From positions 3,614,220 to 3,678,219 of the forward strand of contig NZ_CP012332.1 of the NCBI RefSeq assembly GCF_001263175.1: a stretch of 64,000 nt of DNA, in the 5' to 3' direction. The stretch comes from Vulgatibacter incomptus. Its GTDB lineage: Bacteria > Myxococcota > Myxococcia > Myxococcales > Vulgatibacteraceae. Position numbers and translations under genes: made by a program. The notes under the pieces are model-generated. The model made no database searches, was not told where the DNA came from, and saw only the letters and a program-made list of their open reading frames with translations. Positions 28,612 through 58,168 of this stretch are shown here, piece after piece (the first letter of the stretch is position 1; every line of letters begins with the position of its first letter).

Positions 28612-28910
28612 CATCCCCCGGGCGAGTCTACCGATTCGCCGCGCATGCCAGTCAGATCGAGCTTGGCAGCGCCGCCGCATCGTACCCACGGCACGCGTCG
28701 CTCACCAAGCGACCGGCGCGTCGTGACGAGCGGGCTCGTCGAGAGCACGACGCTCGACGCTCGAGGGTGTTGGGAACGGTACAATGGCAGACGCACCCGG
28801 AACGTCGAGCTCGGACCGCCGGGTCTCGATCCGGCTGACGTCGGGGAGATCGTCCACAAGCCGATTCAGGCGGCGCTCGAGATCGAGCGCATCTTCCTCT
28901 CTGCGCGCGA

Positions 28911-36958: not shown

Positions 36959-36984
36959 GTGACTAGCCGACCGAGTTAGTCACG
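36959..36984. promoter_or_regulatory. Inverted repeat GTGACTA-N12-TAGTCAC in the AT-richer leader of the fic gene
   Basis: Seen in the sequence. It lies in a locally AT-rich stretch (taaagaattcgtgactag...) just upstream of the Fic ORF. Confidence 0.3.
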
Positions 36985-37037
36985 TGGCCGTTACTAGCGA
37001 CGCGGCTGGTCAAACAGACGTCACGAGCGAGGCCGAG

Positions 37038-38228
37038 ATGCCGAAGCGAGCCACCGGGCGATACGAGCGGACCACGGTCGGCGGAGAGGAGGTCGCGGCG
37101 TTCATCCCGCTCGCGCTTCCACCCGCAGACCCACCGCTCGCGATCGGCTCGGCGTTGGCGGATCGCCTGCGCGCTGCCGAGCAGGCGCTCGTCCGACTCG
37201 AGCTCGCGGGTGAGATGGTGCCGTCCCTCGACTGGTTCATCTACGCGTTCGTCCGCAAGGAGGCAGTCGTCTCGTCGCAGATCGAGGGCACCCAGGCCAC
37301 TCTCGTCGACCTGCTCGCGTTCGAGGCGCAGGCGAGCACGGACCAGGCAGCCCCGCCGAACGCAGATGTGGAGGAGATCTGCAACTACCTCGACGCCCTC
37401 ACGTACGCGCGCGAACAGCTCGCCGATCCGACCGGCCTTCCGCTCTCGATGCGTCTCTTGAACGGAGCTCATGATCGGCTCATGCGTGGCGTGCGCGGCG
37501 CCGAGAAGCAGCCCGGCGACGTCCGCCGAAGCCAGAACTGGATCGGCGGCAGCCGCCCCGGAAACGCCGCCTACGTCCCGCCGCCGCCCCACGTACTTGG
37601 CGAGGTCCTGAGCGCGTTCGAGAACTACCTCCACACCGAAGACACGCTGCACCCGCTCGTGCGCGCGGGCCTGCTCCATGTGCAATTCGAGACCATTCAC
37701 CCGTACCTCGATGGCAACGGCCGGATCGGGCGCCTGCTCGTCACCCTGCTGCTCGAGCACTGGAAGTTTTTGACGAAGCCACTGCTCTACCTGAGCCTGT
37801 TCTTCAAGCGGCACCGCGACGAGTACTACCGGCGGCTGAACGCGGTCCGCGTCGAAGGCGATTGGGAGGGCTGGCTGGCCTTCTTCCTCGACGGTGTCGC
37901 GACGATCGCCGACGAGGCCGTCGCCTCCGCACGTGAGCTCTTCGCGTTGATTGCCGACGATCGCGCCCGCGTGCTCGCGCTCGATGGAGTGTCGATCGGC
38001 GCGCTGCGCCTCTTCGAACTGCTTCCGCGCCACCCGATCGTGAGCGTCGCCTCCGTTACGAAGTTCGTCGAGACGAGCAAGCCGACGGCGATCCGCGCGA
38101 TCGAATTCCTCGTCGCCACCGGAGTGCTCGTCGAGTCGACGGGCAAGAAACGAGACCGCTCCTTTGCCTACCGCGCCTACCTGGATCGGCTCAAGGTCGG
38201 CACGGAGTTAGCGCGCCCCTCGCGGTAG
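37038..38228 (+). CDS. Fic/DOC-family protein (Fic_N plus Fic core plus C-terminal wHTH)
   Basis: The Fic motif 'IHPYLDGNGRIGRLLVTLLL' (HPFx[DE]GNGR) is present. The Fic_N region reads 'VRKEAVVSSQIEGTQATLVDLL'. The ATG at 37038 with a GAGG RBS is preferred over the GTG at 36984. Confidence 0.8.
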   Translation: MPKRATGRYERTTVGGEEVAAFIPLALPPADPPLAIGSALADRLRAAEQALVRLELAGEMVPSLDWFIYAFVRKEAVVSSQIEGTQATLVDLLAFEAQASTDQAAPPNADVEEICNYLDALTYAREQLADPTGLPLSMRLLNGAHDRLMRGVRGAEKQPGDVRRSQNWIGGSRPGNAAYVPPPPHVLGEVLSAFENYLHTEDTLHPLVRAGLLHVQFETIHPYLDGNGRIGRLLVTLLLEHWKFLTKPLLYLSLFFKRHRDEYYRRLNAVRVEGDWEGWLAFFLDGVATIADEAVASARELFALIADDRARVLALDGVSIGALRLFELLPRHPIVSVASVTKFVETSKPTAIRAIEFLVATGVLVESTGKKRDRSFAYRAYLDRLKVGTELARPSR

Positions 38229-38280: not shown

Positions 38281-39243
38281 TCAGCGTGACGTGCTCGGCC
38301 GGTACGACATCGCCACGTCGCACCGCTCGTAGCGCGCCCCGAACTGGCGCATGATCTCGGCGTCGTGCACGAAGCCGACCTTCTCGTAGAGATGGATGGC
38401 CGCCGCGCACTTCTCGTTGGTCAGCAGATAGACCTTGGCGAAACCCAGGCTGGAGGCCCGCTCCAGGGTCTTGGCGAGCAGGAACTCGCCGATCTTCAGG
38501 CCCCGGGCGCTCTTCAGGACGCCCATCTTGGTCAGCTCGACCCAGCCGTCCTTGGACACCATCAGGGCGCAGGTCCCGACCACGCCCAGCTCCGGCGTCT
38601 CGGCGAATAGGACCATCCCGCCCTTGTCGAGGATCAGCTCGCGCGGCTTCGACAGGAGCGCGATGTCGTTCTCCTCGAGGGCGAACATGTCCTCGATCCA
38701 CTCCGCGTTGATCCGATAAAACGCGTCGGCCAGGTCGTCGGAGAAGTCGCGCGCCCACATCGTGGGCGGACCGGCGGCCTCGATCCGGCTCAGCAGCGAG
38801 GCCTCGGCAAGCCGCGCCTCCACCCTGGCCAGGCTCTGCATGAAGTCACCCGATAGCCCCTCGATCAGCGAGGCGGCGGCGGGCTCGATGCGCGGCAATA
38901 GCTGCGTCTGGATGCGGGCCACCAGGGCCTCGCCGCTCTCCGTCAGCGCCAGGCGTTTCGAGCGCTGATCGCCCGGCGAGGGCCGCGCTTCGACGAAGTC
39001 CTTGAGTGTCCCGAGAGCGCGGGACACCGTGGGCTGGGCAAGCTGCAGGCGCTCGGCCAGCTCGCCCACCGTGATCGGGCCGTGCAGGCGGATCGTCATC
39101 AGCAGCGACATCTGGGCCGGCTGGACCGGAAGGTCCAGCGATCGGGCCACATCGGCGGCGTCGGCCTGCATCCGCTCGGCCAGGCGCTTGAGCCTGCTGC
39201 CCAGGAAGCCCACGCCAAGCCCTGCCAGAAGATCGACTTCCAT
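38281..39243 (-). CDS. Bifunctional MarR-type HTH regulator / GNAT N-acetyltransferase
   Basis: GGAGG RBS. The N-terminus 'MSLLMTIRLHGPITVGELAERLQLAQPTVSRALGTL' is an HTH. The C-terminus 'LGVVGTCALMVSKDGWVELTKMGVLKSARGLKIGEFLLAKTLERASSLGFAKVYLLTNE' is GNAT. Confidence 0.75.
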   Translation of the reverse strand: MEVDLLAGLGVGFLGSRLKRLAERMQADAADVARSLDLPVQPAQMSLLMTIRLHGPITVGELAERLQLAQPTVSRALGTLKDFVEARPSPGDQRSKRLALTESGEALVARIQTQLLPRIEPAAASLIEGLSGDFMQSLARVEARLAEASLLSRIEAAGPPTMWARDFSDDLADAFYRINAEWIEDMFALEENDIALLSKPRELILDKGGMVLFAETPELGVVGTCALMVSKDGWVELTKMGVLKSARGLKIGEFLLAKTLERASSLGFAKVYLLTNEKCAAAIHLYEKVGFVHDAEIMRQFGARYERCDVAMSYRPSTSR

Positions 39244-39408
39244 GCCCGCCTCCAATCCATAGCGCGCTATATAACTGAGGGGGAGCAACTGCAAGAGGGC
39301 CGAGCATCTGAACTGCGCGCCTCACCCACAGGTGGGCAAGGCCTCGGGCGGCGGGCGGTGGAGACAAACCGTCTTCAATTCAAAACATGTTGCAGGCAAC
39401 ATGTCCCC

Positions 39409-39822
39409 GTGCGTGCCAGAGCCTTCGAGCGCGAAGTTGAGCTGTTCCGCCAGCATGGCGGCAGCCTCCGCATGTCCGAAGCACTGCGCCTCGGCATCAA
39501 CCCGAAGACGCTCTACGCCATGAGAGACGCGAGCGTCATCGAGCCCGTCGCCCGAGGGCAGTACCGGCTCGCGTCCCTCGAACCGCTCGCGCGTCCCGAC
39601 CTGGTCACCGTCGCGGCGCGCGTTCCAAAAACCATGCGCGCGCGACGAAGCGGCCGCTTCAGGAGCTGCCTAACCGAAGCTAGGCCGGACGGGCCCGCGG
39701 CGGCTCTATTGGGCAACTGGCCACGCCATCGGAGAGGGCCAATAGAAAACCGTTGCAACTTTACGACCTTGCGCGCGCGTTCGCAGCTCCCCATCGGCCA
39801 TCGCCGCGTCCGTGGCCATTAG
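39409..39822 (+). pseudogene. AbiEi-like (type IV TA antitoxin N-terminal domain) gene fragment
   Basis: 'FEREVELFRQHGGSLRMSEALRLGINPKTLYAMRDASVIEPVARGQYRLAS' matches the AbiEi_4 N-domain pattern. The rest is degenerate and short. No AbiEii partner is present. Confidence 0.4.
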
Positions 39823-40265
39823 AGCCCTTGCGCCGGGAACCTACCTCTCCTCTAACCTCTGCCGAATCAACTTGGACGCCCGAGCGGTGATCGCGGGCGC
39901 CTTTCGCTGTTCTTGACCCGCGCCACCGTCTCCGAAAGGTTCAACGGAGCTCGGAATCCAAAAAACGAATCACTCACGGCGTTAGGCGACAGTTGGATTT
40001 GGCCGGTCGATTACCGCGAGGTTCAACGGCGAGAGCCTCGTTCAGGTTCTCGCCGGGGCGCTCGCGTAGGCGCGTCCTCGGTTACGTCCCACTGTGCACG
40101 AGAGGTGCACGCCCCGGCAATCGGGTTCGCTTGTGGCCTGGTGGATCGGCCTTCCCCTGTGATGACTTCACGTGGCATGTGTAGAGGGCCGATGCCCTTC
40201 GACCAACCCACCGACGCGATGCCCCTTCAAGGCTCCGCGCACCCGCGTGCTGTGGAGGATTCGCC

Positions 40266-42058
40266 ATGAACCGCGAGGAGTGGGAGATCCTTCGCGAGGG
40301 GTGGGCCTTCGAGGCGAAGCTCGCGCAGGGCCGTGATGGTCGCGGCGAGTTGCCGGCGTCGTTCTGGGAGACCTACAGCGCGTTCGCGAATACCGACGGC
40401 GGCGTCATCGTGCTCGGCGCTGCCGAGCGCAACGACGGCTCGCTCGAGGTGCGCGGCATCGCCGACCTCGACAAGGTCGAGCGCGAGCTGTGGAACAACC
40501 TTCAAAATCCGCAGAAGGTGAGCGCCAACCTGCTCACTTCGTCGAGCGTTACGCGCGAGGAGTTGGACGGGCATCAGCTCCTCGTCGTTCGAGTCCCGAA
40601 GACCACGCGCACCGCGCGTCCCGTGCACCTGAACGGATCGCTTGAGCGATCGTACCAGCGCGTTCACGAGGGTGATCGCCGCATGCGACCCGAAGTGGCG
40701 CGTCGCAGGTCGCCGACTCGATCGTCGATCGAGACTCGACCGTCGTCGAGCACTTCACAGAAGCTGACTTCGATCGTGAAAGCGTGCGTCGCTACCGCAG
40801 CCTCTTCGCGTCGAAGCGCCCCGAGCACCCGTTCGTCACCGAGGACGACACCGGCTTTCTCCGGCAGATCGGGGCGCTCAAGGCGGTACGCGGTCGGACC
40901 GATTTGGGCCTGACGCTCGGCGGGCTGCTGGTACTCGGCCGCGAACTTTCTATCCGCGAACGCTTTCCGCATTGGCACCTCAGCTACCGCGAGCTGCCGG
41001 CCGAGGTGGGCACGGATCTGCGGTGGGTAGATCGCGTCTCGTCGGACGGCTCGTGGACCGCCAACCTCTTCGAGTTCTACACGCGCGCGGTGCTCAAGCT
41101 CTACGAGGGGCTCAAGGTTCCCTTCGCGCTCGAGGGCGGGCAGTTCCGCGTCGACGAGACGCCTGCACACAAGGCGGTGCGCGAGGCATTGGTCAACACG
41201 CTGATTCACGCCGACTACGAAGGGCGCTCGGGCATCCGAGTGTTGCGCGATCCCGCTGGCTTCGAGTTCATCAACCCGGGCCTCCTGCTCGTGACGCCCG
41301 ACCAGGTTTGGAAGGGCGGCGTGAGCGAGCCACGCAACCCGCTCGTGCAACGCCTTTTCGGCTTCTTGCAGCTCGGCGAGCGCGAGGGCTCGGGTGGCCC
41401 TGCGATCCTGCGCGCGTGGTCGGAGCAGCACTGGCGCACGCCAGAGCTCGTCGAGGACGTCGAGAACTCCGAGCTTCACCTGAAGCTGCGGCTCGTGAGT
41501 CTCCTTCCGGAGGCGTCGATCGACGCCGTGCGCGCTGCGGTAGGAGCCGCCTTCGAGGCGCAGGATGAACTCGGCCGGGTCGCGCTCGTCACCGCTCACG
41601 CCGAGAACGGCGTGATGCACGCGCGCATCGCCGGGCTCACGACGGCGCATCCGCGCGACATCACGATCAAGCTCCAGGAACTGGTCCGCAAGGGGCTACT
41701 CGTCGCCAGCGGGCCTGCCCGGACGAGGCGCTACGCCCTCCCGGTAGGCACCGTGGAAAGCTCCGAGGAAAGTTCGCAGGGCTCCGAGGAAACCTCCGAG
41801 GAAAGCTCGGCAGGCACCGAGGAAACCCGTGGCTGGAGGGCCATGTCCGACCAGCTCGACGCGGTAGTGGTGTTCTGCACCCCAGCTTGGAGGACGCTCC
41901 CCGAGATCGCCACTGAGCTCGGCCGTCAGCCTAGCACCGTCCGCACGATGTACTTGAGGCCGCTGCTCGGACGCGGCGCGCTGGTCCGCAAGTACCCTGA
42001 CAACCCGCGTCACCCGCATCAGGCCTACCGAGCTGCGAACGCGAATGAGCCGACGTGA
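40266..42058 (+). pseudogene. AlbA_2 (Schlafen-like) plus HATPase_c_4 plus C-terminal HTH putative regulator (RecG-like 'ATP-binding protein'), frameshifted near nt 40700
   Basis: The N-part in frame 0 reads 'FWETYSAFANTDGGVIVLG'. After about 40700 the protein continues in frame 2 ('...ADSIVDRDSTVVEHFTEADFDRESVRRY... ALVNTLIHADYEGRSGIRV'). The C-terminus has a wHTH. Confidence 0.6.
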
Positions 42059-42444
42059 CGGCCGCACCTCCAGGACCGCGCTTGCCGCGTCTCGTGATTG
42101 GATGCCGACGGAGGCGACCAAGCGGTTGCTCGGGAGAACTGCGGCGGCGCTCGTGGTGAAGATGACCGCGTCCGCGTGCCCGATTTCGATCGCTCTTCGC
42201 TGGGCGCGATCCTCGACGGCTGGCTGAGCGGCCCGCCTAGTCGAGCCGCTGATCCCGCGGACGGGAGATCTTTGAGGACCTAGAACATCAACCTCGAAGC
42301 CTACATGGGCGACGCTCTCCGCGTCCTCGAAGGATCGGTACCTCGAGCTTGCTCCGAAATACTGGCGCGACCGCCTGCCGCCCTTTGGGATCTTGTCCCC
42401 GCCGGGTAATCTGTGCCCGCCCCAACCGCCCGGAGGCCGTCCGC

Positions 42445-43962
42445 TTGAACCCCGCCTCGCCCCCCTTGCGCCTGTTCGATCAGGTTCAGGCCTTTCAGTA
42501 CGTCGTGGCGGAGAAGGCCCCGATTTACCGGGCGATCGTCCAGGTCTTCTCCGAGGCCCGGCACCACTACGTCATCGAACTGCGACCGGCCGAGGTGCTC
42601 GACCGGATTCGCGCCGCCGGGATCTTCGTCGCGCTCGGGCCGGACGAGACGCTCGACTACTACCTCGACATGCTCGTGAAATGGGGCAACCTCGCCTCGG
42701 CGCAAGACTCAGCGACCGTGACGAGGCTCGAGGACTTCTATCGCAAGCGACTCCTCTATCGGCTGACGCCAGCGGGAGAGGCGGCACATCGAGCGGTCGC
42801 AGAGGTCGAAGATGCGATCGGCCGCTCGGGTAGGCTCCAGGCTTCGATGCTCGTCAAGATCCGCGACGAGCTCCGCGAGCTCACAGGTGACCGTGAGCCA
42901 TCGGAGCTGGTCGTCGGCCTCCACGACCTGAACGCGGCGTTCGAATCGCTCACGGAGGAGGCAAACCGATTCATCGGTGACCTCGATCGGCCAACTGGGG
43001 CCAAGCGGATGGACGAAGAGCGCTTCACCTTCTACAAGCGGGCGCTCCTCGCGTACATCCACCGCTTCGTTGGCCAGCTCCGACTCCTGGGAGACGAAAT
43101 CCGCGCGTTGATCGATGGGATCGACGCTGAGGCGCTGATCGATCGCGCGCTGCCCGGTGCCGAGCTCCCGCCGGCACGGGACGACGCGGATCCACGGGCG
43201 GACTGGCGCGCGGAGTGGCTGGCGCGGTGGACGGGGATCCGCGCATGGTTCGTGGGCACCGCCAGCTCGATGCCGACCGTGGAGCGGCTCGCGGCCGTCG
43301 CGGTCGAGGCGGTCCTGGGCCTCACGCGCTCGCTGGGTCGGCTGAGCGGCGCGAGCGCCCGCTCGATGGATCGCGCCGCGGACTTCCGCGTCCTTGCGCA
43401 CTGGTTCGGCCGTTGCCCTGACGATCGCGCGGCGCACGGCCTCTGGCACGCGGCGTTCGGCCTCTCGACGGGGCGACACTTCCACCTCGAGTCCAACGTC
43501 GAAGGCGCGCCATCCTGGTGGGATGCGGCCCCAGTTGAGGTCCCGGTGCGGCTGCGCGAGCGGGGCCAGGTCGCCGTCGCCACCGGCCGGGCGGGCGCGA
43601 TCCCGGACTACAGCGCGGCGCGGCAGTGGCTGGAGCAGAAGCGCAGGCAGGAGCGGGCGCAGCTCGACGCGGCGATCCGCCGGCTCTCGGGCGAGTTCGA
43701 GCTGCGGGACGTCGGGCGCCTCGACCCCGCCGAGTTCGATCTCTTCCTCGCCCTCCTCGATCAGGCGCTCGCCGCCCCGAAGGAGGGCGACGGCTCGCAG
43801 TCGGCCCGCACGATCGACGGGCGCGTCAGGATCCGCCTGACGCCGCCAAAGGATGACGAGCTCGTGGTCCTCGAGGCGCCGGGAGGCCGACTATGGTGCC
43901 GCAACCACCACCTCGAGGTGTCCGCCGTCGAGGGCGCGGCCTGGCGCTCGGAGGCCCGATGA
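42445..43962 (+). CDS. jetA: Wadjet type II JetA-like protein (TIGR02677/DUF2397-type), first gene of a four-gene operon
   Basis: GGAGG RBS plus TTG start. It is about 505 aa. Its stop overlaps the next start (ATGA). Position and size fit the conserved TIGR02677-78-80-79 neighbourhood. Family assignment is by context and was not verified by search. Confidence 0.6.
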   Translation: MNPASPPLRLFDQVQAFQYVVAEKAPIYRAIVQVFSEARHHYVIELRPAEVLDRIRAAGIFVALGPDETLDYYLDMLVKWGNLASAQDSATVTRLEDFYRKRLLYRLTPAGEAAHRAVAEVEDAIGRSGRLQASMLVKIRDELRELTGDREPSELVVGLHDLNAAFESLTEEANRFIGDLDRPTGAKRMDEERFTFYKRALLAYIHRFVGQLRLLGDEIRALIDGIDAEALIDRALPGAELPPARDDADPRADWRAEWLARWTGIRAWFVGTASSMPTVERLAAVAVEAVLGLTRSLGRLSGASARSMDRAADFRVLAHWFGRCPDDRAAHGLWHAAFGLSTGRHFHLESNVEGAPSWWDAAPVEVPVRLRERGQVAVATGRAGAIPDYSAARQWLEQKRRQERAQLDAAIRRLSGEFELRDVGRLDPAEFDLFLALLDQALAAPKEGDGSQSARTIDGRVRIRLTPPKDDELVVLEAPGGRLWCRNHHLEVSAVEGAAWRSEAR

Positions 43963-45140
43963 GCCGCCTCGTCCAGGTGCTCGAGGACGACGAGCGCGCA
44001 CAGCGCGTCGCGGCGATCCGCGCCCTGCTCGCGTCGCCCCTCCTGTCGGCCTCGAGCGACCCGGAGATCTTCCGAACCGTCGTCCGGCAACGCGCGTACC
44101 TGACCGAATGGTTCGCGAGCCATCCGGGCTGGCGGCTGGTGATCGATCCCTCCGGCGGCTACGCGCGCCTCCACAAGGTCCCCGGGCGCAGCGACACGAC
44201 GAAGCCGGCCCGCCGGGCCGACGGTACGCCGTTCGATCGCCGGCGCTACGCGCTCCTGTGCCTCACGCTCGCGGCGCTCGACGACGCGCCGGTGCAGACC
44301 ACCGTCGGCCGTATCGCCGCCCTCGTCGAGGAAGCCAGCGCGGACGACGAGGAAGGGGTCGCCTTCGATCCTTCGCTCGCCGCTGAGCGGCGGGCCTTCG
44401 TCGACGCCCTGCGGCTGCTCGTCTCGCTGGGCGTCCTGCGCGTGCGGGACGGAGACGCCGATCGCTACGCGCATACGCGGGAGGGAGACGCTCTCCTCGA
44501 CGTAAACGAGCGCGTGCTCGGCCAACTCCTTGCGGCGCCGATCCCTCCGGTCTTCGCCGGGACCCCGGAGGGCATGCTGGACGAGCAGCTCCCGGACACG
44601 GACGAGGGCCAGCGGCTCTCGGCCCGCTACCGGGTGATCCGCCGCCTGCTCGAGGATCCCGTGCTCTACTACGACGACCTCGACGCGCGCGCGTTCGACT
44701 GGCTCGATCATTCCCGTGGCTTTCTCTACGCCCTCCTCGAGGACGACGTCGGGATGCCGATCGAGCGCCGCAGGGAGGGCCTCGCCGCCATCGATCCGGA
44801 GGGCCTCGTTACGGACGAGCGCTTCCCCGACGGCGGCTCCACCGTCCGGCACGCGGCGCTCCTCCTCGCGTCCCACTTGGCGAAGCAGGGGGAGCGGGAC
44901 GTGGCCGTGGAGCGCGGAGCGCTCGTCGAGGTCGTCACCGCGCTTCAGGCCGATCATTCCGAGCGCTGGAGCAAGCAGTACTCCGCCGACGAGCAGGGGG
45001 CGGCGCAGCTCTGCGAGGAGGCCGTCGCGTTGCTCGAGGCCTTCGGTCTGGTGCGGCACGAAGGCGATGGGCGCCTCCGCGTCCGGCCGGCCGTCGCGCG
45101 CTTCTCGCCCGGCGAGCCGAAGAAAAAGAGGGCACGATGA
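43959..45140 (+). CDS. jetB: Wadjet type II JetB-like protein (TIGR02678/DUF2398-type)
   Basis: 393 aa. There are ATGA overlaps at both ends. It is acidic, as kleisin/MukE-like subunits are. Confidence 0.6.
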   Translation: MSRLVQVLEDDERAQRVAAIRALLASPLLSASSDPEIFRTVVRQRAYLTEWFASHPGWRLVIDPSGGYARLHKVPGRSDTTKPARRADGTPFDRRRYALLCLTLAALDDAPVQTTVGRIAALVEEASADDEEGVAFDPSLAAERRAFVDALRLLVSLGVLRVRDGDADRYAHTREGDALLDVNERVLGQLLAAPIPPVFAGTPEGMLDEQLPDTDEGQRLSARYRVIRRLLEDPVLYYDDLDARAFDWLDHSRGFLYALLEDDVGMPIERRREGLAAIDPEGLVTDERFPDGGSTVRHAALLLASHLAKQGERDVAVERGALVEVVTALQADHSERWSKQYSADEQGAAQLCEEAVALLEAFGLVRHEGDGRLRVRPAVARFSPGEPKKKRAR

Positions 45141-48100
45141 AAGTCCCGCTCGACCTCCCCGTCGCAAGCACCGGACGCTGGCAGCTCCTGCGCGCCGGCA
45201 TCCAGAACCTCTGGGAGTACGACGACCAGCGCTTCGTCTTCCACCGGGGCCGGCTCCTCCTCCGCGGACAGAACGAGTCCGGCAAGACGAAGGCCCTCGA
45301 GGTCCTCCTCCCCTTCCTCCTCGACGCAAACCTGCAGCCGAGCCGCCTTGATCCCTTCGGCAGCACGTCCCGCTCCATGCGCTGGAACTTGATCGGCGAC
45401 TGGAACCCGGAGGCGAACACCTCGATCGGTTACGTCTGGCTGGAGCTGGGGCGGGTCGAGAACGGCGAGACCCGATACTGCACCGTCGGCGCCGGGCTGC
45501 GGGCCCGGCGGGCCTCCACCGACACCGACGCCTGGTACTTCCGAACCTCTCAGCGGATCGACGTGGACCTGCTCCTGGTGGAAGACCGGCTCCCCCTCGA
45601 GCGCCCCGCCCTCACCAAGGCGATCGACGCACGCGGCCAAGTCTACCAACAGGCTGCCGAGTACCGGCGCGCCGTGAACGACGAGATCTTCGGCATGGAG
45701 GAGGAGCAGTACGGGTCGTTGATCGACGCGCTCTTGCAGCTCCGGCGCCCGCAGCTCTCGAAGAAGCTGGATCCCGAGGAGCTCTCGCAGATCCTCTCGG
45801 CGAGCTTGCCACCCCTCGATCGCACCGTCGTCGCGTCCCTCGCCGAAGGCTTCGAGCGGCTCGATAAGCACCGACTGGAGCGGGACGACGTCTCCGCCAC
45901 CCTCCAGACGTTGCGCCGCTTCCGGAAGGTCTACGAACGCTACGTCGCCTCCGCGGTGAAGGCCGCGGCGAAGGATTTGACGACCGGCGAGAGCTCCTAT
46001 CACATAGCCCGGGAGTCCCTGCGCAAGGCCGAGGAGGAGCTGGAGGCGCTCTACGGCGAGAGGAAGGCACTCGCCGGGGAGATCGCCGCGCTCGACGCAG
46101 AGCGACAAGAGCTCGCCGCCCGGCTGGCGGCCCTGCGCTCTTCCGACGGGTTTCGCGCGGTCGAGCATCTCGCGGATGCGGAGAGGCTGGCCCAGCAGGA
46201 GGAGACGCGGGCCCAGCGCGAAGGGGTCCTCGCGGCGAAGGACCGCGAGGCGGAACGCGTCGCCACGGCGCGGCTGGGCGAGGCCGAGAAGGAGAGGGTG
46301 GACCAGGGGAAGCGGGCGGAGGCCGCGCGGCGGAGCACGGCCCGGGCTGCAGAGGATGCATCCCTCGGCCAGGATCACGCCGGGATCGACGAGCTGTTCG
46401 ATCGGGGCGAGCTCGAGGCGGCGGCGAGCGCGATTGAGAGCTTGCACGGACGGCGCGAGCAGCACCTCGCCCGTCTGCGCAAGCTCGAGGACGCGGCACT
46501 GGATGCGCGCAAGCGCCGTGACCGCGCAGCGCAGGCGTTTAGCGACGCAACGGATCGTGCGGCGGATTTCCGCGACAGGCTCGACCGGGCGGAGAAGCAG
46601 GCGCAGGCGGTTCGTTCCGAGCTGGAAGATTCGATCGGGCGCTGGTCGCGAGGGCTACGGGTGCTCCTCCTCGACCCCGACGACGTGCGCGAACTCGCGC
46701 CCCTCGAGACGCCGGAGCGGGTGAGGCGCGCCGAGGAGGCCACGCGCAAAGCCCTCGGCGACCACCTGACGGCCGCGAGGCTCGAGCTCGAGAAGGTGAA
46801 AGAGGAGCTCGAAGATCGACGACGCGAGCACGACGAGCTGGCGGCCCTCACCCACCGGCCTCCGTCGGCGCCCGCGTGGAGGGCCCCGCGCCCGACCGAC
46901 AGGCCCGGCGCGCCGCTGTACCTGCTCTGCGACTTCGACGACGGCGTCGACGAGACGGTCCGGGGCGCGATCGAAGGCGCGCTCGAGGCGGCCGGCCTCC
47001 TCGACGCCTGGGTCGAGCCTTCCGGAGGTCTGCTGGACGCCGACACCTTCGACCTCGTGCTCTCACCCGCGCCGCTCGAAGGCAGAACCCTTCTCGACGT
47101 CCTCCGTCCGATGGAGGGTCCCGTTCCGGCGCCGGTGGTGGAAACCCTCCTGAGCTCGATCGCGCTTACGGACGACGGGCCCGGCGGAGAAGAGAGCTGA
47201 GTCTCCACGAACGGCCGCTTCGCGCTCGGACCGCTCCACGGCACCAACCGCAAGGCAACTCCGGAGCTCATCGGCACTACGGCGCGCGAGCGGGCGCGAA
47301 AGCGGCGCCTCGCCGAGCTCAAAGCGGCCATCGGGGGACTGGAGGAGAGCCGCGCCTCCAGAGCGCTGATCGTCGACGGGATCGAGGGCAGGCAGCGGCT
47401 CCTCGGTGAGGAGCTGCGCTCGTTCCCCGAGCTGCAGCCGCTGCACACGGCCCTCGCGAAGGCGGCGGCCGAAGCGCAGAACCTGCAGCGGGAGCGGGCG
47501 CAGGTCGAACAGGCGGCGGTCGAGAGCAAACGTGCCGAGACCGCGGAGGACGCTGCGCGGGAGGCGCTGCGGGCCGAGGGCGCGAAGCTCGAGCTCCGCG
47601 ACTGGGTGGACCGGCTCGGAGATCTAGGGCGTCTGACCGGCACGTGGGCGGTCCGCGCCAGGGAGGCGCTCGAGGCGTCGAGGCGCCTCGCGGACAGGCT
47701 GGCCACACTCGAAGAGCGGGAGGCGACGCGGGCGGCAGCGGCAAGCCGGGCGGACGAGTCCGCGGCGCGAGCGGCCTCTTGCGCGGACGAGGCGCGAGCG
47801 CTCCGCGCGACAGCGAGCGCGCTCCGCGATGCGCTGGGTGCCACCAGAGACGAGCTCCTCGAAGAGATCCGGCGGTCGGAGCGGCGGTCGAAAGAGGCCC
47901 GCGAGGAGCGCGAAGACCGCGCGGCTCGCGAAAAGGAGCTCATCGAGCGGGTCGGAGCCGGCAGCGCGACGGTTCAAGAGCGAACCGGCCGCGTTTCGGA
48001 GCAAGACGCGAAAAGGCGAACGGCCGAGCTGGTTTTTCGTGGGGTCGCCGAGCGCGGGCTCCTCGCCTTCGTCGGCGTGGAACCGGAGCGAGCGGCCGAG

Positions 48101-49126
48101 GCGTGGAGCTACACCGACGTGCTTCAGCTTGCGCGCCGGGCCGACGAGGCGACCGGATCGATCGACTGCTCACCCGACGCGAGGGATCGGGCGCGGGACC
48201 GGGTGGGCGACGCGCAGACCGACCTGACCCGGGGGATGCGGGGCGAAATCCGGATCCAGGGCCGGCAGATCGCCGGGATCCTGGAGTACACGGCGATCTG
48301 GGCCGGCCGCACCCAGGGGGTGCTCGAGCTGGAGCGCAACCTGGACGCAGACGTGCGGAGCCGGGACGAGCTGCTCGGGAAAGAGGAGAACGAGATCTTC
48401 GAGGCCTTCCTCTCGGGGGAGACGCACACCCACCTGCGAAACAGGCTCCGCGAGGCGAGCGCGCTCGTGAAGCGGATGAACGACCAGCTCGCCGCGCGCC
48501 CCACCTCCTCGGGCATGCGCATGCGCCTCAAGTGGGAGCCCGGCGAGGAGTCGCCCACGGGGACGAGGGAGGCGATTGATTTGCTCCTCCGCGCAAATCA
48601 CCTCCTCTCCGAGGCCGACCGGACCGCGCTGCGCACTTTTCTCCAGCAGCGCCTCGCGGAGGCGCGGGAGAACGACGGCGCCGGATCCCTCGAGGAGCGA
48701 ATGATGCTCGTGCTCGACTACCGCGGGTGGTTTCAATTTCGAGCGGACTTCTGCGACGCGGTCGGGACCTGGACCCGGCTCAGTCGGAAGACGCACGGCG
48801 CCGGCTCCGGCGGGCAGAAGGCGGTGATGCTGCACCTGCCGCTCTTCGCCGCCGCGGCAGCCTTCTTCGAGTCAGCGGCGAAGACCTCCCTGCGGTTGAT
48901 CGCGCTCGACGAGGCCTTCGCCGGCATCGACCGCCCGACCCGCGGTCAGCTCATGGGCCTCCTGGCTGAGTTCGACCTCGACTTCGTGATGACGTCCTTC
49001 GAGGAGTGGGGCTTCTTCCCACAGCTCGATGGCATCGCCACCTATCACTTGGCGCGGGAGAGGGGAATGCGTGGCGTGTACGCGGAGCGGTTCGTCTGGG
49101 ACGGCACGGAGCCGAGGCGGGCTTGA
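45137..49126 (+). pseudogene. jetC: Wadjet JetC-like SMC-family ATPase (TIGR02680-type), 1329 codons, interrupted by an in-frame TGA at 47198-47200
   Basis: N-terminal Walker A 'LLLRGQNESGKTKALEVLLPFLLD'. The middle is very long Arg/Glu/Ala coiled coil. The C-terminus has 'LRLIALDEAFAGID' (Walker B/D-loop). The same reading frame stays open on both sides of the TGA. Confidence 0.65.
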
Positions 49127-50373
49127 GCGCAGACAGGGAGAAGATCCGGACCCTCCTCGGAGGGCCGCGCTACGAAACGCTTTTCCGAGAGGCCCGCAAG
49201 CGCCGCGAGGAGGACGGCCGCGAGGCGCGGGCGTTCACGCTCCGGCGCGCGAACGTTGACGAGCGGAGGGCCGCCGCCGATCTCTTCGGGTGGCCCCTCG
49301 TGCCTAACGGGACCATCCGGATCTCCCTCGATGAGCTCGATCGGCAGCTTCGCGCGAGTGCCGTCGAAGCCGGGCTCGACGAGGTGCTCGAGGCCCTTGG
49401 AGGCCCGCTCGTCAATCGGCGCGCGCTGCGGGCCGCGACCGCGATCGAGCGGGAGCTGCTCTGGGAGGGAGCCGCGCGAGCGGTCGGGGAGCGGCCGGAG
49501 CTACGGGCGTGGCTCGACGACCTTCGGAGACACGGTCTCGTGTCGCGAGCGGCGCACGCCTTGAGCGTGGGCGAAGAGGTTGTGCTCGAGCGAGCGATCG
49601 CCGCCGCATCTCGGCTACCCGCGTCGGGCCTCGCCCTTGCTGTGCTCGCGGCGGAGACCACGGGGGACGCTCACGCGCTCGACGCCGGAAGCCCTCTTGG
49701 CGGACTCGTTCTGCGAGCCGCGGCCCGCATCGCCGGCTGGCACGAGCCGCCGTCCACTGCAGCGCCCAGACGTGCCCTCTGGGGCGAGGTCGGCATCGTC
49801 TGCGATCCCCTCTCGGCGCAGGTTCTCGTCCTCGGCCTGTGCCTGCAGGGCGAGGGGAGGCTCTCGCGCCGGTTGCGGGACGCCGCGCTCGACGGGGAGC
49901 CCCAGCGTCTCACGCTCCGCGAGATTGGCGGTCGGGATCTTCGGCCGGATCCGGCGGGCGAGATTTTCGTCTGCGAGAACCCGAGCGTCGTCGCCGCGGC
50001 GGCCGATCGTCTGGGCGCTCGCAGTGGGCCCCTCGTGTGCACCGAAGGCGTCCCCTCCACCGCCGCCCTGGGCCTGTTGCGCGAGCTCGCCCGCGGCGGC
50101 GCAAGGCTGCGGGTCCGGGGAGACTTCGACTGGGCCGGCCTTCGAATCGGCGGGCAGGTACTCCGGGAGGCGGGAGGCCAGCCCTGGCGCTTCTGCGCCG
50201 ACGATTACCTGGCCAGCCTCGGCACCGGCGCCGGCCGCGAGCTCGAGGGCGCTGCGGGCGCCTCGCCCTGGGACCCGGCCCTGGCGAGCGCTATGGCGCG
50301 GCACGGCACGGCAGTGTACGAGGAGCAGCTCCTCGACCTCCTGCTCCGGGATTTAGAGGTCGGCTCGTCGTAA
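49123..50373 (+). CDS. jetD: Wadjet JetD-like protein (TIGR02679/DUF2399) with a C-terminal Toprim-like domain
   Basis: A TTGA overlap with the jetC stop. 'IFVCENPSVV' (Toprim Glu) and 'VRGDFDWAGLRIGGQV' (DxD) fit a topo-VI-like Toprim. Confidence 0.6.
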   Translation: MSADREKIRTLLGGPRYETLFREARKRREEDGREARAFTLRRANVDERRAAADLFGWPLVPNGTIRISLDELDRQLRASAVEAGLDEVLEALGGPLVNRRALRAATAIERELLWEGAARAVGERPELRAWLDDLRRHGLVSRAAHALSVGEEVVLERAIAAASRLPASGLALAVLAAETTGDAHALDAGSPLGGLVLRAAARIAGWHEPPSTAAPRRALWGEVGIVCDPLSAQVLVLGLCLQGEGRLSRRLRDAALDGEPQRLTLREIGGRDLRPDPAGEIFVCENPSVVAAAADRLGARSGPLVCTEGVPSTAALGLLRELARGGARLRVRGDFDWAGLRIGGQVLREAGGQPWRFCADDYLASLGTGAGRELEGAAGASPWDPALASAMARHGTAVYEEQLLDLLLRDLEVGSS

Positions 50374-50440
50374 CTAATGCACGAGCCCGGCTGCCCGGGC
50401 GCGACTCGCCGTGCCGCGGAGGCCGTCGGTGCGCTAGTAG

Positions 50441-52572
<2,132 letters not shown>

Positions 52573-52681
52573 AGTGACCTCGACTGAACGTTTGCATCAA
52601 AGGCTCAACCACGAGCGTCGTCATTGTCAAGGGCTGGAGCGTCAGGATGATCGAGAGGGCTCCCGGTGAGCGATAAGCCGA

Positions 52682-54397: not shown

Positions 54398-57300
54398 CTA
54401 TTGGACCTGCAACCCGCCGAGGAGCACCTGGTAGCCTGCCGCCCTCGCGTAGTGGGTCGCTGCGATGAACGAACCCCGTCGGGACGGATCGGTCGGCGGC
54501 CCGCCCACGGCGCCGACAGGCGCGCGGAGATCGACGCTGATGAATCCGGATGCGTATGCGGCGGCGAGCGACGGATCGGTGATCGCCACGCGCTGCGATA
54601 CGAGCGGGAAGGTACCGAGGTTCGTTGAGAGCGCCGTCACCTGCTCTTGCTCGTCGAACTCGAGGATCTCTCGGACCGGCAGCGGAAAGCCGGTCGGCAC
54701 GGAGCCGCAGGTGAACGCCGACAGCACCTCAGGCGATTCGCGCCAGACGACGAAGCTCGTCTTCCCGTCGGCGAACGCACCAAAGAGGCTACTAGGCGCG
54801 ACGTTGTTGATGAACCGCGCCTGCCACGCGGTGCCGAGCGGCTCACGGTTGTCGCTCGCGTCCCACGAGACGAACTTGCCGTAGAACGTGGGCCTGCCTG
54901 CAGTCGTCGTAGCCGAGTCGGTGGAGCTCGCCTGAACGTGCACCAACGTGTCGGCGACCGAGACCTTCTGGTTGCGGTCGATGATCGTGTACGTCCCGGA
55001 GAGGTAGTTCTGGTTGGTCGCGTCGCCGATGCCGCCGTTGCCGAAATAGCCGACGTCGCCGGGGACTCGCTGCGTGCAGTTGTTGACGGTGTCGAATGTG
55101 ACGTAGCCGCGCGCAGTCGCGTCCCCGTGCGGGGCGCCGGCGCACTTGCCGTCGAAGCGCAGAGGCGATGCTTTACCCGTGTGCGCGCTCACGAGATCCT
55201 CGATGGCGGCGGCAGAGAGACGCGCTGGGGGGAGCTGGCCAGTGCAGCTCGCGAAGTTCATGTCCTGCGAATAGTCACCTTTGGGCGAAATCCCGTCGTT
55301 CGGGTCCTGACCCGTGCTCGCCGTGAGGTCGACGAGCCCCTTCTGGAAGAGCCACCGCAGGTCGACGAGCGACGAATCATAGCCGGTCAAGTAGACGTTG
55401 AAGCGGTGCGTGGGGAGGCCGTAATCGGTCCACAGGGTCGCGTGGACGAGCACCGCCGACGCGAACAGGTTGACCAGACGAATCTGCGTGTTGACCCCGT
55501 TCGGGTCGACGGTGTCGACCTCGAAGTGCGGGACGAGCAAGGTCGCCGCCGGGGCCACGTCCGAGACCCCGATGGCCGGGGACTTGGTCGGCACAAAGGT
55601 ATTTGTGCCCACGTCGAACACCCCGTCCTGGGGCGGCATCGAGTGATGCGCTCGCGTCGCGCTGTCGACGGCGACCGCCGCGAGGTTCGTACCGAACCTG
55701 GAGAGCGTGCCGTTGCGCGAGCCGGGGTAGTGGATGGCCATCGCGTACGACTGCGCAGCGGCCGGATCGGACGAGGGCCCGCCCGGCGCCGGCGCCATGT
55801 TGCTCGAGAACACGAGGGTGCCGTTCTTGGACGTGACGGGGATCGTGCTGCCGCCGACACGCGTGCGCGTCACGTCGATCTTGAAGGGCTGCGTCGCCGA
55901 CAGCTCGGTCACGCCCTCTTGCATATCGAACGCCAGGAGGCCTTCGCTGCCGAGGGGATAGGTGCTTGGCGGCGTGCCGCACGTGAATGCTTCCTGGCTG
56001 ACGCGCGAGTCTCGCCACACGATCACGTCGGTCTCCTGCGTGGTGAAAGGGATCTCCCAGACCGTCGAGAGAGGCTCACGGTTGTCGGCGGCGTTCCAGC
56101 CCACGTAGCGCCCGTAGAAGGTGTAGCGCCCAGCGGTCGAGGTACGCGCGTCCGACGCGCTTGCCTCAATGTGAACGGCTGGCTGCGCCTGCACGTGAGG
56201 GGTGGCGGCGTCGATAAAGAAGAAGTCGCCGAGCAGGTAGTTCTGGTTCGTCGCGTCCCCGGTTTCGCCCGCACCGAAGTAGCCGGGCATCGACGGAACG
56301 CGCGGCGTGCAGTTGTTCACAGTGTCGATCGTGACGTAGCCGCGGGCGATCGTGTCGCCGTGGTCGGGGCCCGCGCATTTGTCGCCGAGCATCGCCGAGG
56401 ACTTCCCGGTGAGGGCCGACGTCAGGCCCGCGATGCCGTCTGCTGTGAGGTTCGCCGCCGGCAACACGCCGTGGCACGTTGCGTAGTTGATGTCTTGCGA
56501 GAAATCCCCCCGCGGGCTGATCGTGTCCGCCGGATCCTGACCGGCGGTGGCCGTCTGAGGGACTCTGCCGTTGACGAAGAGCTCGCGCAGGCTGATCGAC
56601 TCCACATCGTACCCGGTGAGGTAGACGTGGAAGTGATGGACGGGAACGCCCATCTCGCTCCAAATCGTGACGTTGGTCAGCACCGACGCCGAGTTGGAGT
56701 TCTGGACGGTGATGATCGTGTCGTTCTTGCCGGCGCCGGTATCCACCTCGAAATAGGGATAGAGCAGCGTGGCAGCGGGCACGTTGTCGAGCGTGCCGAT
56801 GGCCGCGTCGGCCGGAAGCGCCGTGAAGAGAACGCCTACACCGAATGGCAGCGCGAGAAGCTCGGACCAAGAGCTTTTGGTCATCTTCTGTCCTGCACGG
56901 CGGCGTCGGAGGGCCAGGTCTACGAACGCGAAGAGCGCGAACAAGCCTGCGGATCCATTCCCGCCGCGCGCATTGCAGCCGCAGCCGCTGTCGGCGGGTG
57001 GCTTGCTGGTGCCGGGGGCGCCTCCATCGTCCTTCTTTACGAGCGAACAGTCTTTGGCGCACTTGCCGCCAGCGGTCCCATTGCGTTCGCCCTCGTCGCA
57101 CTGCTCACCCGGGTCGACCTTTCCGTCGCCACACGGGTTGACAATGGTGACCGTGCCATCGCTGGGTGAGCCCGCCGCGTAGACAATGGTCGGCGCGATC
57201 GTCGCGATGACCGTGCTGTCGTTCGGCGCATCCCGGGTCGGCACCACGTCGACAGTGGCGGAGGCAGCTCCCTCCGGAATCGTGATGAGGCCGTCGAGTG

Positions 57301-58045: not shown

Positions 58046-58168
58046 TGATCGGTTACAGTACGCCTGAGCAATACCGCCCACAACCGAAATCAATGCGCTC
58101 TCTCGATTCGGTTCGAGGTCGCGTTCGACGGAGAGTCGGGCACCGGATGGAGCGCGAAGGCCGACGAA

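What the first reader, a model, noticed from the sequence alone, without database searches (positions are those of the whole stretch)
42445..50373. Complete four-gene Wadjet type II-like (JetABCD / TIGR02677-78-80-79) anti-plasmid condensin operon
There are four co-directional genes with ATGA/TTGA start-stop overlaps. Their sizes are about 505, 393, 1329 and 416 aa. The third is an SMC/SbcC-like ATPase: N-terminal Walker A 'GQNESGKTK', roughly 900 aa of coiled coil, and a C-terminal 'LIALDEAFAGID'. The fourth ends in a Toprim-like E...DxD module ('IFVCENPSVV', 'VRGDFDWAGLRI'). This architecture is diagnostic of Wadjet/MksBEFG-type plasmid-restriction systems. It sits directly downstream of a patch of defense/mobile remnants.
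Basis: partly seen in the sequence, partly recalled or inferred. Interest (0 to 1): 0.7.

Follow-up and report, generated by a model that had tools for sequence, protein, structure and literature searches.

The report
Wadjet type II operon, jetC interrupted
This is an ordinary, already-annotated type II Wadjet (JetABCD) anti-plasmid system in the myxobacterium Vulgatibacter incomptus, but its motor gene jetC has a stop codon in place of a conserved tryptophan, so the system as sequenced is probably switched off.

Summary
The family call is right. The four co-directional genes at 42445-50373 (+) match TIGR02677/78/80/79 above NCBI's cut-offs, and match PADLOC JetA2/B2/C2/D2 (E from 1e-120 to 1e-193). 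JetA, JetB and JetC hit the solved Neobacillus vireti type II Wadjet complex (PDB 9QE0). A confident JetD model (pLDDT 94.8) is closest to MksG, JetD and topoisomerase VI-A. The Toprim residues E285, D334 and D336 are invariant.

"Complete" is not right. The "1329-aa" third gene is not one open reading frame. An in-frame TGA at 47198-47200 (codon 688, mid-protein, inferred hinge) replaces a Trp found in 57 of 60 full-length homologues. No ATG, GTG or TTG follows in frame for 135 codons.

The window is Vulgatibacter incomptus (4.35-Mb genome). The public record lists jetC as two proteins, AKU92736 (687 aa) and AKU92737 (506 aa).

Everything else in jetC is intact: only 4 conservative deviations at 203 highly conserved columns. 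The lesion is therefore a recent TGG>TGA nonsense mutation, or less likely a base-call error. The precedent is the split eptC of M. smegmatis mc2-155.

The gene just upstream (AlbA_2/HATPase_c_4) is frameshifted, and a SoFic gene lies nearby. This is a known kind of system and of low interest.

The parts
42431..42435 (+). Shine-Dalgarno-like GGAGG, 8 nt upstream of the jetA TTG start
   Evidence: Read directly from the sequence.
42445..43962 (+). jetA (type II kleisin; DUF2397/TIGR02677), 505 aa, TTG start, TGA stop. Identical to AKU92734.1.
   Evidence: TIGR02677 at 355 bits against a cut-off of 165.85, profile positions 2-492 of 494. PADLOC JetA2 4.9e-135. PF09660 5e-131. PDB 9QE0 chain E (JetA) 3.4e-32. 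Exact look-up.
43959..45140 (+). jetB (type II KITE subunit; DUF2398/TIGR02678), 393 aa, with an ATGA overlap onto jetA. Identical to AKU92735.1.
   Evidence: TIGR02678 at 264 bits against a cut-off of 124.65, profile 1-375 of 376. PADLOC JetB2 2.4e-120. PF09661 7.5e-111, plus a weaker DUF4194 match. PDB 9QE0 chain D (JetB, 389 aa) 6.1e-06. The size fits the single-chain tandem KITE described for type II.
45137..47200 (+). jetC N-terminal ORF, 687 aa: Walker A head half, ascending coiled coil, first part of the hinge. It ends at the premature TGA. Identical to AKU92736.1.
   Evidence: TIGR02680 at 496.5 bits, profile 1-705 of 1356. PADLOC JetC2 3.6e-193, profile 6-706 of 1361. PDB 9QE0 chain A (JetC) 3.5e-52, residues 4-697. 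Exact look-up.
47198..47200 (+). Premature in-frame TGA (codon 688 of the conceptual jetC). It aligns with a Trp present in 57 of 60 homologues, so one G>A change from TGG explains it.
   Evidence: Sequence GAGAGC TGA GTC. Alignment column, consensus C/A-W-V/I-S. The related locus L001 has Trp at this position. RNA folding downstream is no more stable than shuffled sequence, z +0.85.
47201..49126 (+). Remainder of jetC in the same frame, 641 codons: rest of the hinge, descending coiled coil, signature SGGQ, Walker B LIALDE, D-loop. The first in-frame ATG, GTG or TTG is GTG 47606, the start of the annotated 506-aa AKU92737.1.
   Evidence: TIGR02680 profile 711-1354 of 1356 continues directly from the N-terminal half. 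PADLOC JetC2 4.6e-160. PF13558 SbcC_Walker_B. The segment 47201-47605 keeps the coding signature (GC3 0.90) but has no canonical start, and there is no SD before GTG 47606.
49123..50373 (+). jetD (type II nuclease; DUF3323 + DUF2399 Toprim; TIGR02679), 416 aa, TTG start in a TTGA overlap with the jetC stop, TAA stop. Identical to AKU92738.1.
   Evidence: TIGR02679 at 299.8 bits against a cut-off of 196. PADLOC JetD2 3.6e-125. PF11796 and PF09664. E285, D334 and D336 are invariant in 59 sequences. AF2 model pLDDT 94.8. Best PDB matches are MksG 8B7F, JetD 7TIL and Topo VI-A 1D3Y.

Best explanation
The locus is a chromosomal type II Wadjet (JetABCD) anti-plasmid system of Vulgatibacter incomptus.

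How an intact system works (taken from the reconstituted N. vireti type II system and from type I systems, not shown here): the JetA kleisin, the JetB tandem KITE and a JetC SMC dimer form an ATP-driven loop-extruding motor. The motor scans DNA. When it has extruded a small circular molecule completely, it licenses the JetD Toprim nuclease to cut that DNA. The cut is not sequence-specific and destroys the plasmid.

In this genome jetC carries a TGG>TGA nonsense change at conserved Trp688, in the middle of the gene. By SMC architecture this is the hinge (inferred). The only product predicted from the sequence is a 687-aa fragment: half of the ATPase head plus one coiled-coil strand. It lacks the signature motif, Walker B and the D-loop, so it cannot form an ATPase head or a closed ring.

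Ribosomes would stop 1.9 kb before jetD, so the TTGA translational coupling to jetD is also lost (inferred).

The system is therefore most likely a very recent loss-of-function allele, and the strain is expected to be permissive for small circular plasmids. This parallels the split eptC/mksB gene of M. smegmatis mc2-155.
For: - Family identity: all four genes pass NCBIfam cut-offs, PADLOC JetA2/B2/C2/D2 and the Pfam DUF2397/DUF2398/SbcC_Walker_B/DUF3323+DUF2399 models. JetA, JetB and JetC hit PDB 9QE0 chains.
- JetD fold and catalytic residues.
- The stop codon: seen directly. It aligns with Trp in 57 of 60 homologues, which (apart from a few partial entries) are single chains of about 1260-1400 aa. 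A related Myxococcota locus has the same jetABCD order with one continuous jetC and Trp at this position.
- No in-frame canonical start for 135 codons, and no SD before GTG 47606.
- TGA is an ordinary stop in this genome: jetA, jetB, jetC and other genes end in it.
- Recency: the window's JetC departs from the consensus at only 4 of 203 columns that are at least 95% conserved. All four changes are conservative, and this is fewer than in many intact homologues.
- The stop is in the deposited genome. The two halves exist as separate public proteins, AKU92736.1 and AKU92737.1.
- The adjacent defence-type gene is also broken by a frameshift, which fits local decay.
- Mechanism and precedent from the literature: type II reconstitution (bioRxiv 10.1101/2025.03.10.642339); mc2-155 eptC mutation and split mksB (PMC10123090; PMC10586767); a jetC pseudogene example (PMC9252829).
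Against: - No reads and no second isolate are available, so a base-call or consensus error cannot be excluded.
- The complete absence of any other damage in jetC, and in jetA, jetB and jetD, is just what an error in an intact gene would look like.
- UGA is the leakiest stop, and near-cognate tRNA-Trp would insert exactly the wild-type residue, so some full-length JetC could still be made.
- No functional data exist for this organism.
Confidence: 0.6

Rival explanations
1. The TGA is a sequencing or consensus error in the deposited genome. The real gene reads TGG, and the operon is a complete, functional type II Wadjet system.
For: - Apart from this one base the gene is flawless: 4 conservative deviations at 203 conserved columns, all ATPase motifs present.
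- jetA, jetB and jetD cover their profiles from end to end.
- A second lesion only 6.5 kb upstream is a single-base frameshift, the kind of defect that long-read consensus errors produce. That could hint at imperfect polishing. The sequencing platform of this record is not known to me.
Against: - The lesion is a substitution, not an indel, and it does not lie in a homopolymer. My understanding is that substitutions are rare in high-coverage consensus.
- Other long genes in the window (1449 aa, 1231 aa) are uninterrupted.
- Spontaneous jetC or eptC inactivation is documented elsewhere.
Confidence: 0.28
2. The UGA is real but leaky. Near-cognate tRNA-Trp read-through restores the wild-type Trp, giving a low level of full-length JetC and a weakened but still active system.
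For: - The stop is UGA, which established knowledge holds to be the most read-through-prone stop and the one tRNA-Trp can misread.
- The codon sits exactly at a Trp position.
- The downstream reading frame is perfectly preserved.
Against: - There is no stimulatory or SECIS-like structure downstream (MFE no better than shuffles).
- The following base is G, not the leakiest context (my recollection, not tested here).
- None of the 60 homologues shows a stop at this position, so nothing suggests a programmed event.
- Preservation of the frame is equally explained by the mutation being recent.
- My understanding is that basal read-through is usually well below 1%.
Confidence: 0.07
3. The two annotated halves (687 aa and 506 aa) are both made and assemble into a working two-piece SMC.
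For: The public record annotates both as proteins.
Against: - The 506-aa ORF starts at GTG 47606 with no SD. It would omit 135 residues (689-823) that match the family profile and keep the coding signature.
- Every full-length homologue retrieved is a single chain.
- The break falls inside a conserved motif (CWVS.DGRF.LGP), not at a domain boundary.
Confidence: 0.02
4. The locus is a housekeeping MksBEF/MukBEF-like chromosome condensin rather than a defence system.
For: JetABC are homologous to MukFEB, and weak DUF4194/MksE matches are seen in JetB.
Against: - A JetD nuclease gene with an intact Toprim triad is translationally coupled to jetC.
- All four proteins match the type II Wadjet-specific models, not the Muk or Mks ones.
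- The neighbours are defence genes: SoFic and an AbiEi fragment.
Confidence: 0.02

Closest known systems
Neobacillus vireti type II Wadjet, nvJET-II (PDB 9QE0/9QE1; Roisne-Hamelin, Liu & Gruber, bioRxiv 10.1101/2025.03.10.642339)
   Same: - Same four families and the same gene order.
- JetA, JetB and JetC match its chains directly (E 3.4e-32, 6.1e-06, and 3.5e-52 / 7.1e-29).
- JetB is about 390 aa, the size of the single-chain tandem KITE.
- JetC is about 1330-1370 aa.
- JetD has a CAP-like part plus a Toprim domain.
   Different: - The sequences are distant, and a different phylum is involved (Myxococcota against Bacillota).
- Here jetC is interrupted by a TGA at Trp688.
- No biochemical data exist for this locus. 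Mn2+ dependence, the roughly 50-kb size limit and specificity for circular DNA are extrapolated from nvJET-II.
EptABCD / MksBEFG of Mycobacterium smegmatis mc2-155 (Panas et al. 2014, as cited in PMC10123090 and PMC10586767)
   Same: It is a JetABCD-homologous system whose SMC gene carries a spontaneous mutation and appears split in the sequenced laboratory strain. The result is a plasmid-permissive phenotype. That is the same gene with the same kind of lesion.
   Different: - I could not read the primary paper, so the exact mutation and the Wadjet type of EptABCD were not verified here.
- In V. incomptus no phenotype is known.
Type I Wadjet / MksBEFG (E. coli GF4-3 and P. aeruginosa PA14 JetABCD; C. 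glutamicum MksBEFG)
   Same: The overall logic is the same: an SMC, kleisin and KITE motor plus a Toprim nuclease. The JetD model's best structural matches are MksG 8B7F and PA14 JetD 7TIL.
   Different: - The Pfam/TIGR families differ: type I uses DUF3375, DUF4194 and DUF3322/DUF2220.
- PADLOC JetB1 and JetC1 models give only marginal scores here.
- JetD shares only 13-16% identity with type I nucleases, with TM-scores of 0.25-0.43. This agrees with the reported divergent aCAP of type II JetD.

Membership tests
Wadjet type II (JetABCD-II) | JetA-II kleisin of family DUF2397 / TIGR02677 | tested here: met
   355 bits against a cut-off of 165.85, full-length profile coverage. PADLOC JetA2 4.9e-135. 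PDB 9QE0_E 3.4e-32.
Wadjet type II (JetABCD-II) | JetB-II large (about 390 aa) KITE subunit of family DUF2398 / TIGR02678 | tested here: met
   264 bits against a cut-off of 124.65, profile 1-375 of 376. PADLOC JetB2 2.4e-120. 393 aa. PDB 9QE0_D match. The four-WHD tandem fold itself was not modelled.
Wadjet type II (JetABCD-II) | JetC-II: one SMC polypeptide of about 1350 aa (TIGR02680) with Walker A, signature, Walker B and hinge | tested here: not met
   The homology and all the motifs are present. But the reading frame is broken by TGA at 47198-47200, at a Trp conserved in 57 of 60 homologues. Only the N-terminal half passes the TIGR02680 cut-off on its own (496.5 against 462.85). The C-terminal half scores 399.1.
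Wadjet type II (JetABCD-II) | JetD-II nuclease: DUF3323 N-terminal part plus DUF2399 Toprim with the acidic E...DxD triad | tested here: met
   TIGR02679 at 299.8 bits against a cut-off of 196. PF11796 and PF09664. E285, D334 and D336 invariant. AF2 pLDDT 94.8. Best PDB matches are MksG, JetD and Topo VI-A.
Wadjet type II (JetABCD-II) | Co-directional jetA-jetB-jetC-jetD operon | tested here: met
   Overlapping ATGA, ATGA and TTGA junctions with SD-like motifs. The order is the same in the related locus L001. The downstream gene is convergent, so jetD ends the operon.
Wadjet type II (JetABCD-II) | ATP-dependent cleavage of small circular DNA / restriction of plasmids | not testable with these tools
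   Known for nvJET-II. No data exist for V. incomptus. The nonsense codon predicts loss of this activity.
MukBEF / MksBEF housekeeping condensin | A three-gene SMC, kleisin and KITE set without an associated Toprim nuclease | tested here: not met
   A jetD gene is present and translationally coupled.
   Both halves match TIGR02680 and JetC2 best. The Pfam SbcC_Walker_B match is only the shared C-terminal head motif. The neighbours are jetA, jetB and jetD.

The most novel reading that the evidence does not exclude
The UGA at the conserved Trp688 codon of jetC is not a dead end. It would be a maintained, leaky attenuator. Read-through by tRNA-Trp would yield a trickle of wild-type JetC. This would keep an autoimmunity-prone DNA-cutting SMC system at a very low, condition-dependent level, while the 687-aa fragment might act as a regulator.
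Probability: 0.04. Interest if true: 0.55.

Novelty: already known. Interest (0 to 1): 0.15.

Why it matters
There is little at stake. Type II Wadjet has been defined, shown to restrict plasmids and reconstituted structurally. These exact proteins are already in public databases under the TIGR02677-80 family names.

The only practical points are these:
- Automated or by-eye calls of a 'complete' defence system can miss a single nonsense codon. Inventories for this genome should flag jetC as disrupted.
- If the allele is real, the V. incomptus type strain may be naturally permissive for small circular plasmids. That would be useful for anyone trying to develop genetics in this small-genome myxobacterium.
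- It adds one more case of jetC being the subunit lost when Wadjet is inactivated.

Tried and rejected
- **Selenocysteine or programmed recoding at the TGA.** Rejected. Homologues have Trp, not Cys, at the site. The 81 nt around and after the stop fold no better than shuffles. No tRNA gene lies in the window. TGA ends ordinary genes here.
- **Alternative genetic code (TGA = Trp).** Rejected for the same reason. jetA, jetB and jetC all terminate at TGA exactly where the family profiles end.
- **A fifth operon gene after jetD** (ORF 50377-52587 +, 736 aa, starting 4 nt after the jetD stop). Rejected. It has no Pfam hit and GC3 of 0.61. The opposite-strand ORF 50743-52572 has GC3 of 0.90 and an EGF_3 domain.
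- **Island boundaries or mobile-element repeats around the operon.** Only short chance-level repeats were found. There were no Rfam hits, no tRNA and no GC dip.
- **Close orthologues, to test relaxed selection or compare the codon in sister strains.** None exist in the collections. The best JetC hit is 51% identical and the best genome locus is 43%.
- **Exact-gene context look-ups.** All four (jetB, the jetC N-terminal ORF, CorA and JetD/P0121) found nothing.
- **Promoter and terminator consensus scan.** Uninformative in this high-GC genome.
- **The primary M. smegmatis paper (PMC4169951).** Not held.


Full report
**1. What is in the sequence**

The ORF list for 38-54 kb and direct translations show four co-directional + strand reading frames.
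- jetA runs 42445-43962. It has a TTG start with GGAGG 8 nt upstream.
- jetB runs 43959-45140.
- A third frame runs 45137-49126.
- jetD runs 49123-50373.

The junctions are ATGA, ATGA and TTGA overlaps, each preceded by a GAGG-type motif.

The third frame, however, is not open. It contains TGA at 47198-47200. The mechanical ORF list therefore reports 45137-47200 (687 aa) and, in the same frame, 47606-49126 (506 aa). Between them there is no ATG, GTG or TTG for 135 codons. The "1329 aa" of the finding is obtained only by reading through this stop.

**2. Family identity**

- NCBIfam gives one family per gene, each covering the profile from end to end: TIGR02677 (355 bits), TIGR02678 (264 bits) and TIGR02679 (300 bits). 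All are far above their cut-offs.
- The two jetC pieces match TIGR02680 positions 1-705 and 711-1354 of 1356. They are consecutive halves of one protein.
- PADLOC gives JetA2, JetB2, JetC2 (twice) and JetD2 at E 1e-120 to 1e-193. Type I models score only marginally.
- Pfam gives DUF2397, DUF2398, SbcC_Walker_B and DUF3323+DUF2399.
- JetA, JetB and both JetC halves hit the chains of PDB 9QE0/9QE1. This is the cryo-EM structure of the Neobacillus vireti type II Wadjet complex (bioRxiv 10.1101/2025.03.10.642339).

JetD has no sequence-level PDB relative. I therefore aligned it with 58 homologues. C284-E285-N286 and D334-x-D336 are invariant. I then modelled it (pLDDT 94.8). Foldseek against the PDB returns C. 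glutamicum MksG (8B7F), P. aeruginosa JetD (7TIL) and topoisomerase VI-A (1D3Y), followed by isolated Toprim domains. The refuting alternative (RecN/SbcC in another context) is not met.

**3. Source and public status**

An exact-sequence look-up finds all five translated pieces in one 4,350,553-bp record of Vulgatibacter incomptus (Myxococcota). They carry consecutive accessions AKU92734-AKU92738 and are named TIGR02677/78/80/79 family proteins. A paper names this 4.35-Mb DSM 27710 genome CP012332.1 and calls it the smallest in the order (PMC4765838).

So the stop is in the deposited genome, and public annotation carries jetC as two CDS. The locus is not new to the databases.

**4. The nature of the stop**

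A search of 5.8 billion proteins returned JetC homologues (best 51% identity). Apart from a few partial entries they are single chains of about 1260-1400 aa. In an alignment with the best 60, the TGA falls on a Trp present in 57 of them, inside the conserved block C/A-W-V/I-S-x-D-G-R-F-x-L-G-P.

A related Myxococcota locus (L001) has jetABCD in the same order, with a continuous jetC and Trp at that place. A single G>A transition (TGG>TGA) explains the difference.

The position is codon 688 of 1329. It aligns with about residue 700 of nvJetC and with the middle of the TIGR02680 profile. By SMC architecture this is the hinge (inference).

The rest of the gene shows no decay.
- At 203 columns that are at least 95% conserved among homologues, the window's protein differs at 4, all conservatively (A>G, L>I, T>S, Y>F). 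That is fewer than in many intact homologues.
- The unannotated stretch 47201-47605 keeps the coding signature, with GC3 of 0.90.

The event is therefore very recent, or it is an artefact.

Recoding is unlikely.
- TGA terminates jetA, jetB, jetC and other genes just where their profiles end.
- The RNA after the stop folds no better than shuffles.
- There is no tRNA in the window.
- Homologues have Trp rather than Cys at the site.

The annotated 506-aa second piece starts at a GTG with no SD. It would lack 135 conserved residues.

**5. How it would work, and what the stop does**

*Shown elsewhere, inferred here.* nvJET-II needs JetABC, JetD and ATP. It cleaves circular but not linear DNA, at random positions, and requires Mn2+. 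It loses efficiency in vivo at about 50 kb. Its motor unit is JetA1-B1-C2, with a tandem-KITE JetB and a channel-less hinge.

*Inferred for this locus.* The 687-aa product has Walker A but not the signature, Walker B or D-loop (residues 1224-1265). No ATPase head or closed SMC ring can form. Termination 1.9 kb upstream also removes the translational coupling to jetD. The expected phenotype is loss of plasmid restriction.

*Precedents.*
- M. smegmatis mc2-155 owes its transformability to a spontaneous mutation in the homologous SMC gene eptC, which "seems to be split" in that strain (PMC10123090; PMC10586767).
- A spontaneous deletion that included jetABCD arose in a C. cellulovorans mutant with greatly improved plasmid uptake. 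The authors then made a targeted jetABCD deletion to isolate its contribution, and conclude from it that the system prevents plasmid transfer (PMC12287153).
- The PADLOC paper illustrates a jetC frameshift pseudogene (PMC9252829).

**6. Rivals**

- *Sequencing error, about 0.28.* It cannot be excluded without reads. It is favoured by the otherwise perfect gene. It is disfavoured by the lesion being a substitution outside a homopolymer, and by other long genes in the window being intact.
- *Leaky UGA read-through by tRNA-Trp, about 0.07.* It would restore the wild-type residue, but nothing suggests it is programmed.
- *A functional two-piece SMC, about 0.02.*
- *A housekeeping condensin, about 0.02.* Both of these last two are contradicted by the data above.

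**7. Surroundings**

Upstream lie:
- an intact SoFic-type Fic gene at 36984-38228 (PADLOC 1.2e-109; motif HPYLDGNGRIGR);
- a divergent MarR-GNAT fusion at 38281-39294 (-);
- an AbiEi-like N-terminal fragment with no AbiEii partner at 39082-39822;
- an AlbA_2 (Schlafen) + HATPase_c_4 + Fic-like_C gene at 40266-42058. It is broken by a -1 frameshift at about 40707. Homologues of about 620 aa align contiguously across two frames.

So the region is a small defence cluster with two freshly damaged genes. I found no integrase, transposase, tRNA, flanking repeats or GC anomaly.

Downstream, the long + ORF that starts 4 nt after jetD is a non-coding shadow (GC3 0.61). The real gene there is the convergent EGF_3-domain gene at 50743-52572 (-). 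jetD therefore ends the operon.

**8. Verdict**

The genes, coordinates and motifs are right, but the third gene is not one ORF.
Wadjet type II is right; "complete" is wrong.
- The kind of system is already known, and these proteins are already named in public records.
- The disrupted jetC is a small but useful correction, with a practical implication for plasmid work in this organism. Interest is low.

Noticed in passing
window 36984-38228 (+): An intact single-gene SoFic-type defence candidate. It has Fic_N and Fic domains, PADLOC SoFic 1.2e-109 over the whole profile, and the catalytic motif HPYLDGNGRIGR. It lies 4.2 kb upstream of jetA.
   Followed up: partly
window 40266-42058 (+), break at about 40707-40708: An AlbA_2 (Schlafen-like) + HATPase_c_4 + Fic-like_C gene is split by a -1 frameshift. 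Homologues of about 620 aa align to frame 1 (40266-40706) and then to frame 3 (40709-42043) with no residues lost. This is a second disrupted gene immediately upstream of the Wadjet operon.
   Followed up: yes
window 39082-39822 (+): An AbiEi-like antitoxin fragment. Only the N-terminal wHTH matches (profile positions 9-76 of about 200). No AbiEii toxin is nearby: the following ORF, 39913-40269, has no family hit. The 5' part of the ORF overlaps the MarR-GNAT gene on the other strand, so the real start is probably later.
   Followed up: partly
window 38281-39294 (-): A MarR-type wHTH fused to a GNAT acetyltransferase domain in one 337-aa ORF. It sits between the SoFic gene and the AbiEi fragment.
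   Followed up: no
window 50377-52587 (+) and 50743-52572 (-): The 736-aa + strand ORF that begins 4 nt after the jetD stop looks like a fifth operon gene. It is a non-coding shadow (GC3 0.61, no Pfam hit) of a convergent - strand gene with an EGF_3 domain (GC3 0.90).
   Followed up: yes
window 41747-41812 (+): An imperfect 33-nt tandem duplication (79% identity) inside the C-terminal part of the AlbA_2/HATPase_c_4 gene. It encodes a Ser/Glu-rich linker.
   Followed up: no
window 46001-48000: A strong AT skew (+0.229) and positive GC skew, confined to the jetC coiled-coil and hinge region. The likely cause is the purine-rich Glu/Arg/Ala codon usage of the coiled coil rather than any separate feature.
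   Followed up: no
window 24340-28689 (-) and 54398-58093 (-): Two very long uninterrupted genes: 1449 aa with a C-terminal Beta-lactamase2 domain, and 1231 aa with a P_proprotein domain. I used them only as evidence that long genes elsewhere in the window are not riddled with errors. Their functions were not examined.
   Followed up: no
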